Shown one piece after another: positions 3,001 through 6,000 of a DNA stretch of 7,503 nucleotides. The position numbers are program-made. This DNA is from a virus (lineage: Duplodnaviria > Heunggongvirae > Uroviricota > Caudoviricetes), in the IMG/VR virus record IMGVR_UViG_2671180814_000014, one strand, 5' to 3'. Position 1 is the stretch's first letter. Every line of letters starts with the position of its first letter.

Positions 3001-6000
3001 GGGGTGAATATGGCAGTAAAGATTTCAGGTGTACTGAAAGACGGCACAGGAAAACCGGTACAGAACTGCACAATCCAGCTGAAAGCAAAACGTAACAGCA
3101 CCACGGTGGTGGTGAACACGCTGGCCTCAGAAAATCCGGATGAAGCCGGGCGTTACAGCATGGACGTTGAGTACGGTCAGTACAGCGTTATTCTGTTGGT
3201 GGAAGGATTCCCGCCGTCACATGCCGGGACCATCACCGTGTATGAAGATTCCCGACCCGGTACGCTGAATGATTTTCTCGGTGCCATGACGGAGGATGAT
3301 GCCCGTCCGGAGGCACTGCGCCGTTTTGAGCTGATGGTGGAAGAGGTGGCGCGTAACGCGTCCGCGGTGGCACAGAACACGGCAGCCGCGAAGAAATCAG
3401 CCAGCGATGCCAGCACATCAGCCCGTGAGGCGGCAACCCATGCGACTGATGCTGCAGATTCAGCACGTGCAGCCAGCACGTCAGCCGGACAGGCCGCTTC
3501 GTCGGCTCAGTCAGCGTCTTCCAGCGCAGGAACGGCATCAACAAAGGCCACTGAAGCCTCAAAAAGTGCTGCCGCTGCAGAGTCCTCAAAAAGCGCGGCG
3601 GCTACCAGTGCCGGTGCGGCGAAAACGTTAGAAACGAATGCGGCAGCGTCACAACAATCAGCAGCCACTTCTGCATCCACCGCGACCACGAAAGCGTCAG
3701 AAGCTGCCACCTCAGCCCGGGATGCGTCGGCTTCAAAAGAGGCGGCAAAATCATCAGAAACGAACGCATCATCAAGCGCCAGTAGCGCAGCTTCCTCGGC
3801 GACGGCGGCTGCAAATTCTGCGAAGGCGGCCAAAACGTCCGAGACGAACGCCAGGTCTTCTGAAACGGCAGCGGGACAGAGTGCCTCAGCTGCGGCAGGC
3901 TCAAAAACAGCGGCTGCGNNNNNNNNNNNNNNNNNNNNNNNNNNNNNNNNNNNNNNNNNNNNNNNNNNNNNNNNNNNAACGGCAGCGGGACAGAGTGCCT
4001 CAGCTGCGGCAGGCTCAAAAACAGCGGCTGCGTCGTCTGCCAGCGCCGCGTCAACAAGTGCCGGGCAGGCCTCAGCCAGTGCCACCGCCGCCGGAAAATC
4101 GGCAGAAAGCGCCGCATCATCCGCTTCAACAGCCACAACGAAGGCTGGCGAAGCCACTGAGCAGGCCACGGCAGCAGCGAGGTCAGCTTCCGCAGCGAAG
4201 ACATCCGAAACGAACGCGAAAGCGTCGGAAACCCGTGCAGAATCCTCAAAAACGGCTGCCGCATCGTCCGCCAGTTCGGCGGCGTCATCGGCATCATCGG
4301 CGTCTGCTTCAAAAGATGAGGCGACCAGACAGGCGTCAGCAGCGAAGGGCAGCGCCACGACGGCATCCACGAAGGCGACAGAGGCTGCTGGTAGTGCGAC
4401 GGCAGCAGCTCAGAGCAAAAGTACGGCGGAATCTGCAGCAACGCGCGCTGAGACAGCGGCAAAACGGGCAGAGGATATTGCATCCGCCGTGGCGCTTGAG
4501 GATGCGAGCACGACGAAAAAGGGGATAGTACAGCTCAGTAGTGCGACTAACAGCACTTCCGAGTCACTGGCGGCAACACCAAAAGCCGTTAAGGCCGCGT
4601 ATGACCTGGCTAACGGGAAATACACCGCACAGGATGCAACGACAGCACAGAAAGGGATAATCCAGCTAAGCAGCGCGACCAACAGCACGTCTGAAACGCT
4701 GGCGGCAACGCCAAAGGCAGTAAAAGCAGCCAATGACAATGCTGAGAAACGTCTGCAGAAAGATCAGAACGGTGCGGATATCCCTGGCAAAGACACCTTT
4801 ACGAAAAATATTGGTGCCTGCCGTGCCTTCGGTGGGTCAGTAAGCACAACAACAGGAAACTGGACGACTGCACAGTTTATCGAGTGGCTGGATTCTCAGG
4901 GAGCATTTAACCATCCATACTGGATGTGCAAGGGTTCCTGGTCTTATGGCAATAATAAAATCATTACTGATACTGGCTGCGGTAATATTCATCTCGCCGG
5001 AGCTGTCATTGAAGTAATGGGGATAAAGTCAGCGATGACGATCCGCATTACCACTCCGACCACATCCAGCGGTGGCGGAACAACCAACGCCCAGTTTACC
5101 TATATTAATCACGGAACAGATTATTCACCTGGCTGGCGAAGGGACTATAACTCCAGAAATAAGCCAACGGCATCAGAGATCGGGGCGCTACCGTCAGGTG
5201 GAACAGCAGTATCATCAGTTAATCTGGCTTCAAAAGGTCGGGTAGCCGCGCTGACAGACAATACGCAGGGGGCAGCAGGTCTTGAGTTATACGAGGTGTA
5301 TAACAACGGATATCCAACAGCGTATGGAAATATCATTCACCTGAAAGGGATGACAGCCGTTGGCGAAGGTGAGTTACTCATCGGCTGGAGTGGTACAAGC
5401 GGTGCTCATGCTCCGGCATTTATTCGTTCACGACGGGATACGACCGACGCAAACTGGTCGCCGTGGGCGCAGCTTTACACCTCGGCTCATCCTCCTGCAG
5501 AGTTTTATCCAGTCGGTGCACCAATCCCGTGGCCATCAGATACCGTTCCGTCTGGTTATGCCCTGATGCAGGGGCAGACTTTTGACAAATCTGCTTACCC
5601 GAAACTTGCAGCCGCTTATCCGTCAGGCGTGATCCCTGATATGCGTGGCTGGACGATTAAGGGCAAGCCCGCCAGTGGTCGTGCCGTATTGTCTCAGGAA
5701 CAGGATGGCATTAAATCGCACACCCACAGCGCCAGCGCATCCAGTACGGATTTGGGGACGAAAACCACATCGTCGTTTGATTACGGCACTAAATCCACGA
5801 ATAACACCGGGGCGCATACGCACAGTCTGAGCGGCTCTACAAGTTCAGCTGGGGCCCACCAACATAGTCAGACTGGGCCCAGAACGAATAGCGGGAGTCA
5901 ACCTACTGGAATGTTTCCGGCAGGGAGTACTCAAGTTAGCGGGACTAATCAGGTTGGTATCAGTGGCTCATTAACCAGTGGCACCTCCCAATGGGTAGGT

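What the first reader, a model, noticed from the sequence alone, without database searches (positions are those of the whole stretch)
4735..5510. Mosaic stf: A+T-richer, Cys-containing central module between conserved N- and C-terminal parts
The N-terminal anchor, Ala/Ser shaft, tail-fibre repeat motifs and His-rich C-terminus match what I recall of K-12 StfR and lambda Stf. The roughly 260-aa stretch from about ...[14 protein letters not shown] to ...[11 protein letters not shown] does not: it has visibly lower GC (for example 4920-5010) and contains several Cys residues (CRAFGG, WMCKG, TGCGN) in an otherwise Cys-free protein. That pattern suggests a horizontally exchanged receptor-recognition cassette, which would set this fibre's host range.
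Basis: partly seen in the sequence, partly recalled or inferred. Interest (0 to 1): 0.45.

Follow-up and report, generated by a model that had tools for sequence, protein, structure and literature searches.

The report
Shuffled shaft domains in prophage tail fibre
The odd central stretch of this prophage side-tail-fibre gene is two well-known, freely shuffled tail-fibre domains, one with a solved structure from phage Mu; it is an ordinary mosaic fibre, and a different 53-residue tip more likely sets host range.

Summary
The observation largely holds. Window 4785-5473 has no counterpart in K-12 StfR or lambda Stf, and it carries 3 of the protein's 4 cysteines.

The lower G+C is not independent evidence of foreign origin. 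The Ala/Ser shaft is G+C-rich because of its amino acids, and third-position G+C does not differ significantly (p=0.12).

The segment is two separate tail-fibre domains:
- Module A (4777-5190) is 72-82% identical to the first domain of the invertible Sv' part of Mu and P1 fibres (PDB 8JU3).
- Module B (5191-5508) occurs in P1/P7 S, Gifsy-1 Stf and others.
- Both orders, A-B and B-A, occur elsewhere.

At least 80% of the segment is present in 800 of 5,426 complete E. coli genomes (best-match identity at least 99% in 711 records), and it is also in sequenced phages such as mEp460.

The receptor-cassette reading is weak. The same central cassette is joined to at least four unrelated tips. The real hypervariable segment is 5853-6021, which is 19-32% identical between alleles against 81-96% in its flanks. 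It aligns with the T4 gp37 specificity loop, and this version is in only 25 genomes.

Verdict: known tail-fibre mosaicism; low interest. The tfa chaperone gene here carries a 64-bp frameshifting deletion.

The parts
3004..6207 (+). stf, the side tail fibre gene of a lambdoid prophage (1067 codons as assembled; about 1029 real)
   Evidence: ORF found. It lies in the order J-lom-stf-tfa, as in mEp460, NH-21 and SE11. It is 96% identical in nucleotides to K-12 stfR over 3004-3918.
3004..3408 (+). N-terminal anchor (StfN collar) domain; contains Cys22
   Evidence: PHROG tail-fibre families match from profile position 1. It is 87.7-97% identical in nucleotides to lambda, K-12 and other stf genes. 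Domain role is taken from the Ur-lambda structure (PMC12617516).
3409..4509 (+). Ala/Ser/Thr-rich proximal shaft; includes the scaffold-gap artefact 3919 to about 4032
   Evidence: G+C is 62% with second-position G+C 0.80. The N-run flanks map to overlapping positions of mEp460 (5298 and 5245).
4507..4761 (+). Two Phage_fiber_2 repeats ([25 protein letters not shown]); K-12 StfR and strain Z1323HEC0016 have one
   Evidence: Pfam PF03406, E=1.7e-37, two stretches. The subject ranges overlap in L002 and L011.
4777..5190 (+). Module A: the Cys-containing Mu/P1 Sv'-type tail-fibre domain (DIPGKDTF...[18 protein letters not shown])
   Evidence: - Sequence match to PDB 8ju3: whole-sequence E=5.5e-87, main stretch E=4.4e-70, covering chain residues 178-362.
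- Foldseek match to 8ju3, E=1.7e-19; it is the only significant PDB hit.
- tblastn finds P1 Sv' at 81.6% and Mu S' at 72.5% identity, in 97 phage records.
- The AF2 core has pLDDT 74-92.
5191..5508 (+). Module B: a second shuffled fibre domain (...[13 protein letters not shown]...[43 protein letters not shown])
   Evidence: - tblastn finds P7, D6 and P1 S (C+) at 69-72%, Goslar at 76% and Gifsy-1 Stf at 60% identity, in 75 phage records.
- It precedes module A in other proteins.
- The K-12 Qin remnant keeps it from window 5243 onward.
5509..5852 (+). Collar domain and descending needle strands with HxH motifs (T4 gp37-like)
   Evidence: Pfam Collar PF07484, E=4.2e-12. PDB 2xgf matches at E=1.2e-82. 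It is 92.5% identical in nucleotides to K-12 stfR.
5853..6021 (+). Hypervariable distal tip (head) loop; the most likely receptor-specificity determinant
   Evidence: - Its 53 aa are 19-32% identical to six other alleles, against 81-96% in the flanks.
- It is the only gap in the gp37 alignment and aligns with about gp37 residues 932-965 (PMC9659904).
- It is in 25 of 5,426 E. coli genomes and in no phage record.
6022..6207 (+). Ascending needle strands and conserved C-terminus (...[18 protein letters not shown])
   Evidence: It is 94-96% identical in nucleotides to all comparators and aligns to 2xgf.
6207..6723 (+). tfa, the tail-fibre assembly chaperone gene, disrupted by a 64-bp deletion at 6329/6330
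   Evidence: - The frame starting at 6207 stops after 46 codons.
- All seven comparators carry 64 extra bases at that point.
- The Caudo_TAP domain survives in ORF 6271-6723.

Best explanation
Identity. The segment is not one cassette. It is two autonomous, widely shuffled tail-fibre domains inserted between the proximal Ala/Ser shaft and the distal T4 gp37-like collar-needle-head of a lambdoid side tail fibre.
- Module A is the domain that opens the invertible Sv' part of the Mu G(-) and P1 C(-) fibres. Its structure is solved as PDB 8JU3.
- Module B is a domain also found in P1/P7 S and Gifsy-1 Stf.

How it got there. The cassette was probably exchanged by recombination at conserved linker motifs: ...NGADIPxK... 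on the left and ...W..YTS..PP..YP(V/A)GAPIPWPSD on the right.

What it does (inferred). In the assembled trimer the two domains most likely form globular knobs at the hinge position of the Ur-lambda fibre. There they would set length, geometry and trimer register.

What sets host range. Primary receptor specificity most likely lies in the separately exchanged 53-residue tip loop (5853-6021), folded with help from Tfa.

Shown: homology, mosaic boundaries, independent assortment of cassette and tip. Inferred: the structural (hinge or spacer) role and the tip as the specificity determinant.
For: Identity of the modules:
- Module A matches PDB 8ju3 (whole-sequence E=5.5e-87; main stretch E=4.4e-70).
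- 8ju3 is the only significant structural match to the AF2 model (E=1.7e-19).
- In Mu, nucleotide similarity starts 13 codons after the G-segment boundary.
- Module A is found in 97 phage records and module B in 75, in myoviruses and siphoviruses of Escherichia, Yersinia, Salmonella, Vibrio, Aeromonas, Shewanella and Acinetobacter.
- Orders A-B, B-A and a tandem A-A all occur.

Mosaic boundaries:
- Breakpoints against K-12 stfR are at 4784 and 5474.
- Lambda Stf lacks both modules.

Frequency:
- At least 80% of the segment is present in 800 of 5,426 genomes. Best-match identity is at least 99% in 711 records.

Independent assortment of cassette and tip:
- mEp460, NH-21 and SE11 carry the same cassette with three other tip types.
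- The tip is 19-32% identical between alleles, against 81-96% in its flanks.
- This tip is in only 25 genomes.
- The tip aligns with the only gap in the gp37 alignment, which is the gp37 specificity region (PMC9659904).

Position and structural resemblance:
- The Ur-lambda Stf map places a hinge directly after the fibre repeat and a gp37-like distal receptor-binding domain beyond it (PMC12617516).
- The end of module A resembles the trimerisation domain of T4 gp34, a proximal half-fibre protein. The Pfam PF21446 hit is sub-threshold, and the next Foldseek hits are gp34.
Against: - No binding data exist for this allele, so the structural role is an inference from position and conservation.
- In Mu and P1, module A lies inside the invertible host-range segment, so it could contribute to specificity there.
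- The Gifsy-1 Stf, which carries a module B homologue, binds LPS core Gal II, and the binding site was not mapped.
- Alternative cassettes at the same position, such as the roughly 380-aa one in K-12 StfR, show that the site is itself polymorphic.
- The AF2 model is a monomer of only moderate confidence (mean pLDDT 66). Module B and the linkers score below 75.
Confidence: 0.72

Rival explanations
1. One reading: the central cassette is itself a receptor-recognition (lectin-like) module that sets or co-sets host range, for example by binding the LPS core laterally while the tip binds a porin.
For: - Module A is part of the host-range-switching Sv' segments of Mu and P1.
- The site carries alternative, unrelated cassettes in K-12 StfR and lambda.
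- Gifsy-1 Stf, which has a module B homologue at 60% identity, binds LPS core Gal II.
- Module A is a compact alpha/beta domain that could carry a pocket.
Against: - The cassette is 97-100% conserved in nucleotides across alleles with unrelated tips.
- It lies proximal to the collar.
- Modules A and B occur in either order and as tandem copies, as expected of spacer domains.
- Module A also occurs well inside very long fibres, such as KVP40 gp37 and phrog_26292 at positions 744-870 of 1190, far from their tips.
- The end of module A weakly resembles the trimerisation domain of gp34, a protein that does not contact the receptor.
Confidence: 0.18
2. In this particular genome the fibre is a decaying, non-functional prophage remnant, so the cassette currently does nothing.
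For: - tfa has a window-specific 64-bp deletion, and its frame stops after 46 codons.
- The usual pin gene downstream is absent. It is replaced by 32% G+C DNA that abuts IS1.
- Upstream there is an odd stf'::lom' fusion.
Against: - stf itself is an intact ORF, apart from the scaffold gap.
- The assembly is visibly a gapped draft (N-runs with duplicated flanks), so the deletion and the fusion may be assembly errors.
- ORF 6271-6723 still encodes the Caudo_TAP domain.
- Another prophage's Tfa could complement.
Confidence: 0.35
3. The apparent module is an assembly chimera or a chance compositional fluctuation.
For: The window contains three N stretches and duplicated contig ends. The G+C signal is not significant.
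Against: The exact 776-bp segment in the same gene context is present at 100% identity in strain NH-21 and at 99.9% in all the other listed complete genomes. Best-match identity is at least 99% in 711 records. Phage genomes also carry it.
Confidence: 0.01

Closest known systems
Phage Mu G(-) tail fibre S' (gp52), PDB 8JU3 (Mori et al. 2024, Virology 593:110017), and P1 C(-) Sv'
   Same: - Module A is 72.5% (Mu) and 81.6% (P1) identical over 136 aa.
- Two of the three window cysteines are conserved within WMCKG and TGCGN.
- The fold match is E=1.7e-19.
- The same [18 protein letters not shown] junction motif opens the domain.
   Different: - In Mu and P1 the domain is followed by a different knob and a gp37_C-type (PF12604) tip, and it lies on an invertible segment of a myovirus baseplate fibre.
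- Here it is followed by module B and a T4 gp37-type needle in a siphovirus side fibre.
- No invertase is present in the window.
Lambda Stf (Ur-lambda) and E. coli K-12 StfR (Rac)
   Same: They share the N-terminal anchor, Ala/Ser shaft, fibre repeat, collar, HxH needle, C-terminus and J-lom-stf-tfa gene order.
   Different: - Their central regions are unrelated: a short hinge in lambda and about 380 aa of other sequence in StfR.
- Their tip loops are only 19-21% identical to this one.
Stf of phages mEp460_ev081, PhiR68_2, PhiR29 and SPF_0923, and of about 800 E. coli prophages (e.g. NH-21, SE11)
   Same: They carry the same central cassette at 98-100% nucleotide identity in the same architecture.
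   Different: Most have other tip loops. This tip is in 25 genomes and in no phage record.
T4 gp37 receptor-binding tip (PDB 2XGF)
   Same: The C-terminal 232 aa align at E=1.2e-82, with the collar and His-rich needle conserved.
   Different: The head loop differs. Everything upstream of the collar is unrelated, and module A and B homologues occur only in some T4-like gp37 proteins (KVP40, Acj9).

Membership tests
Lambdoid side tail fibre (lambda Stf / StfR family) | N-terminal Stf anchor domain homologous to lambda/StfR | tested here: met
   Window 3004-3918 is 87.7% identical in nucleotides to lambda and 96.4% to K-12 stfR. PHROG tail-fibre profiles match from position 1.
Lambdoid side tail fibre (lambda Stf / StfR family) | Gene located after J and lom and before tfa | tested here: met
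   The window ORF order is the same as in mEp460, NH-21, SE11 and lambda.
Lambdoid side tail fibre (lambda Stf / StfR family) | C-terminal T4 gp37-like collar and HxH needle | tested here: met
   PDB 2xgf matches at E=1.2e-82 and Pfam Collar at E=4.2e-12.
Lambdoid side tail fibre (lambda Stf / StfR family) | Intact cognate Tfa chaperone gene | tested here: not met
   A 64-bp deletion makes the tfa frame stop after 46 codons. This may be an assembly error, and it affects function in this strain rather than the identity of stf.
Mu S' / P1 Sv' N-terminal variable-part domain (8JU3 type) | Sequence homology across the whole domain | tested here: met
   Identity is 72.5-81.6% over 136 of 138 aa. 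phmmer gives a whole-sequence E=5.5e-87 (main stretch E=4.4e-70) to 8ju3.
Mu S' / P1 Sv' N-terminal variable-part domain (8JU3 type) | Same fold | tested here: met
   Foldseek E=1.7e-19, probability 1.00, to 8ju3. The overall TM-score is only 0.44 because the monomer model's inter-domain geometry is unreliable.
Mu S' / P1 Sv' N-terminal variable-part domain (8JU3 type) | Location on a DNA-invertible segment (gix/cix sites, Gin/Cin invertase) | tested here: not met
   The window has no invertase ORF and no second, inverted fibre-gene end. This is a property of the Mu and P1 loci rather than of the domain.
T4 gp34 C-terminal trimerisation domain (Pfam PF21446) | Score at or above the Pfam gathering threshold | tested here: not met
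   The score is 18.3 bits against a cut-off of 27. The gp34 structures are only weak Foldseek hits, E=0.06-0.3. This is a resemblance, not membership.
Receptor-specificity cassette of a gp37-type fibre | Distal position (head loop between the descending and ascending needle strands) | tested here: not met
   The finding's segment ends where the collar begins. The head loop is at 5853-6021.
Receptor-specificity cassette of a gp37-type fibre | Hypervariable between otherwise near-identical alleles | tested here: not met
   The cassette is 97-100% identical in nucleotides in mEp460, NH-21 and SE11, whereas the tip is 21-32% identical in amino acids.
Receptor-specificity cassette of a gp37-type fibre | Direct binding to a host surface receptor | not testable with these tools
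   This needs adsorption or binding assays.

The most novel reading that the evidence does not exclude
Module A and/or module B is an independent carbohydrate-binding knob at the fibre hinge. The Stf would then have two receptor sites, a lateral one for LPS core or O-antigen and a porin-binding tip, so that cassette and tip together encode a combinatorial host range.
Probability: 0.12. Interest if true: 0.45.

Novelty: already known. Interest (0 to 1): 0.14.

Why it matters
It matters little beyond correct annotation. Tail-fibre gene mosaicism among lambda, P1, P2, Mu and T4 has been textbook knowledge since the early 1990s (from my own knowledge: Haggard-Ljungquist 1992; Sandmeier 1992; Hendrix and Duda 1992). 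This exact allele is common in E. coli.

Two practical points follow:
- For predicting or engineering the host range of this fibre type, the segment to look at is the 53-residue tip loop (5853-6021), not the Cys-containing centre.
- The conserved joints NGADIPxK and PIPWPSD mark natural splice points that fibre-engineering work could use.

Tried and rejected
- Composition as evidence of foreign origin: rejected. Third-position G+C gives p=0.115, and amino-acid composition explains the contrast with the shaft.
- The cysteines as a conserved metal site or disulfide:
  - In close homologues WM[C] and TG[C] co-occur in 94 of 96 cases, and both are lost together in 2 of 96.
  - A second pair, K[C]SW and AG[C]V, co-occurs in 43.
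  - The sequences are closely related, however.
  - The TG[C] cysteine is F, V or Y in KVP40, Shewanella and Ah1 homologues, and the first cysteine (GA[C]RA) is often A.
  - So there is no universal requirement, and the question is left open.
- Pfam assignment of the module to Gp34_trimer: below threshold.
- Reading Mori et al. 2024 for the domain description of 8JU3: the paper is not held. Only citing papers were available.
- Other-strand or RNA features inside 4735-5510: only two chance ORFs of 63 and 68 aa, and no Rfam hit there.
- Assembly chimera as an explanation for the module: rejected by complete genomes.
- The AF2 monomer model gave only moderate confidence (pLDDT 66). It was used only for the fold match, not for geometry or Cys-Cys distances.

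Full report
**Context**

The window is the tail-fibre end of a lambdoid prophage. It holds:
- the J C-terminus (24-1103);
- lom (1171-1911);
- an odd stf'::lom' fusion (2063-2911);
- a full stf (3004-6207);
- tfa (6207-6723);
- 32% G+C DNA that runs into an IS1 end.

The same J-lom-stf-tfa order is annotated in phage mEp460_ev081 and in prophages of E. coli NH-21 and SE11. The window is a gapped draft, with N-runs at 1531-1605, 2500 and 3919-3977. The flanks of the stf gap map to overlapping positions of mEp460, so about 38 codons of the 1067 are artefact.

**Checking the observation**

- The N-terminal anchor matches tail-fibre PHROG profiles from position 1.
- There are two PF03406 fibre repeats and a Collar domain.
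- The last 232 aa align to the T4 gp37 tip structure 2XGF at E=1.2e-82.

The homology break is also real. Similarity to K-12 StfR stops at window 4784, after KDQNGADIP, and resumes at 5474. Lambda Stf matches only up to ATPKAVK and again from PIPWPSD.

Three cysteines lie at residues 606, 642 and 659. A fourth lies at residue 22, so the protein is not otherwise Cys-free.

The G+C claim is numerically true but not informative:
- The segment is 50.3% G+C, against 57.4% for the rest of stf.
- That is the same as J and tfa. The outlier is the Ala/Ser shaft (62%, second-position G+C 0.80).
- Amino-acid composition alone predicts 52.2% for the module and 62.2% for the shaft.
- Third-position G+C is 0.465 against 0.522, which is not significant (p=0.115).

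**What the segment is**

It is two domains, not one.

Module A (4777-5190) carries the three cysteines.
- It matches PDB 8JU3, the phage Mu G(-) fibre S'/gp52, with whole-sequence E=5.5e-87 and main-stretch E=4.4e-70.
- An AF2 model has mean pLDDT 66, with the module A core at 74-92.
- 8JU3 is the model's only significant PDB neighbour (E=1.7e-19). The next, weak hits are the T4 gp34 C-terminal region.
- All significant viral-library hits that carry a UniProt name are phage tail or fibre-associated proteins.
- In Mu, nucleotide similarity begins 13 codons after the G-segment boundary, so this is the first domain of the invertible Sv' part.
- tblastn finds it in 97 phage records. These include P1 Sv' (81.6%), Mu, D108 and SfMu (about 72.5%), P2-like phages, PSP3, SSU5 and D6.
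- At 43-58% identity it is in KVP40 and nt-1 gp37 and in Aeromonas and Shewanella phages.

Module B (5191-5508) is in 75 phage records. These include P7, D6 and P1 S (C+), Goslar, Gifsy-1 Stf (60%), SSU5, Vibrio phages and Acinetobacter gp37.

In an alignment of 30 homologues and in PHROG profiles:
- the two modules occur as A-B (here, and in phrog_3299);
- they occur as B-A (P0028, P0039, P0040, P0102 and phrog_6722);
- they occur as tandem A-A in Photorhabdus.

The junctions fall at conserved linkers: NGADIPxK..F..NIG on the left and [18 protein letters not shown] on the right.

**Frequency**

At least 80% of the 776-bp segment is present in 800 of 5,426 complete E. coli genomes. Best-match identity is at least 99% in 711 records. 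It is also in sequenced phages mEp460_ev081, PhiR68_2, PhiR29, PhiR42, PhiR26 and SPF_0923. K-12 itself retains the 3' part of module B, from window 5243, in its Qin stf remnant.

**Where specificity most likely lies**

Comparing stf with seven other alleles shows a second, independent mosaic segment at 5853-6021.
- Here the 53 encoded residues are 19-32% identical to six alleles, while the flanking C-terminal sequence is 81-96% identical.
- This loop is the only gap in the alignment to T4 gp37.
- It corresponds to the gp37 region (about residues 932-965) that the literature treats as the receptor-specificity domain in the head of the needle (PMC9659904).
- mEp460, NH-21 and SE11 carry the same central cassette at 94-98% nucleotide identity, joined to three other tip types.
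- This tip is found in only 25 genomes and in no phage record.

The Ur-lambda structure places a hinge directly after the fibre repeat and a gp37-like distal receptor-binding domain that contacts OmpC (PMC12617516). The central cassette sits at that hinge position.

**Mechanism**

Shown:
- The cassette is a recombinationally exchanged pair of tail-fibre domains.
- It assorts independently of the tip.

Inferred:
- In the trimer the two domains form knobs between the proximal shaft and the distal needle. They would contribute length, hinge geometry and trimer register.
- The tip loop, folded with Tfa, is the primary specificity determinant.

A lateral, secondary binding function is not excluded. 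Module A lies in the host-range segments of Mu and P1. Gifsy-1 Stf binds LPS core Gal II at an unmapped site.

**The cysteines**

WM[C]KG and TG[C]GN are both Cys in 94 of 96 close homologues and are replaced together (M and V) in 2. In KVP40, Shewanella and Ah1 homologues, however, the second is F, V or Y. The first cysteine (GA[C]RA) is often Ala. The cysteines are therefore a signature of this domain family, not evidence of a special function.

**State of the locus**

- tfa has a 64-bp deletion at 6329/6330 that is absent from all seven comparators. The frame stops after 46 codons.
- The usual pin gene is missing, and IS1 abuts the window end.
- The fibre may therefore be non-functional here, unless these features are assembly errors.

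**Verdict**

'Exchanged cassette' is right, and 'host-range determinant' is probably misplaced by about 350 bp. This is a common allele of a known mosaic gene family whose central domain already has a solved structure. It is already known and of low interest.

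Noticed in passing
window 6207-6723 (junction at 6329/6330): tfa carries a 64-bp deletion relative to K-12 tfaR/tfaQ, lambda, mEp460, NH-21, SE11 and Z1323HEC0016. The frame from the ATG at 6207 stops after 46 codons. The Caudo_TAP domain remains in ORF 6271-6723. It could be a real pseudogene or an assembly error.
   Followed up: yes
window 2063-2911 (single N at 2500): An ORF fuses the first ~146 codons of a second, diverged stf to a lom-like gene that has an internal deletion and a truncated end. 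This gives the order J-lom-stf'::lom'-stf. In all 12 listed matches among complete genomes the two copies map onto one place rather than a tandem arrangement, so this is likely a misassembly or a rare rearrangement between prophages.
   Followed up: partly
window 1531-1605 and 3919-3977: The N-runs are scaffold gaps. At 3919-3977 the flanks map to overlapping positions of mEp460, a duplication of about 54 bp. At 1531-1605 the same peptide, VMAGPSVRVNEWFSAYAMVGVA, is repeated on both sides of the gap in the translation. Both inflate the lengths of the lom and stf ORFs.
   Followed up: yes
window 5853-6021: The hypervariable tip loop of the gp37-like needle is 19-32% identical in amino acids to six other alleles. 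It is near-identical in only 25 of 5,426 E. coli genomes and absent from the phage collection. This rare tip is the more interesting part of the gene.
   Followed up: yes
window 4606-4650 (within 4507-4761): The number of Phage_fiber_2 repeats varies. The window, mEp460, NH-21 and SE11 have two copies, while K-12 StfR and Z1323HEC0016 have one.
   Followed up: partly
window 6485-6683 (+): There is an Rfam match to IS009 (RF02111, 218.5 bits against a gathering score of 117), lying entirely inside the tfa coding sequence.
   Followed up: no
window 6724-7503: This is 32% G+C DNA with no ORF of 60 aa or more, in the place where related prophages carry pin. The last ~30 bases look like an IS1 terminal repeat. 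In the closest complete genome (O78 strain 3) an IS1A transposase gene starts 25 bp beyond the end of the match.
   Followed up: partly
L010 1501-2453 (E. coli K-12 Qin prophage): The K-12 Qin stf remnant next to nohA starts inside module B (equivalent to window 5243). Its tip type is the same as SE11's. K-12 therefore carries part of this cassette even though its StfR does not.
   Followed up: partly
proteins P0017 and P0021 (Photorhabdus); alignment A1: Photorhabdus tail-fibre proteins contain two tandem copies of module A. In Enterobacter and other proteins (P0039, P0040) both conserved cysteines are replaced together (WMMKG and TGVGN).
   Followed up: partly
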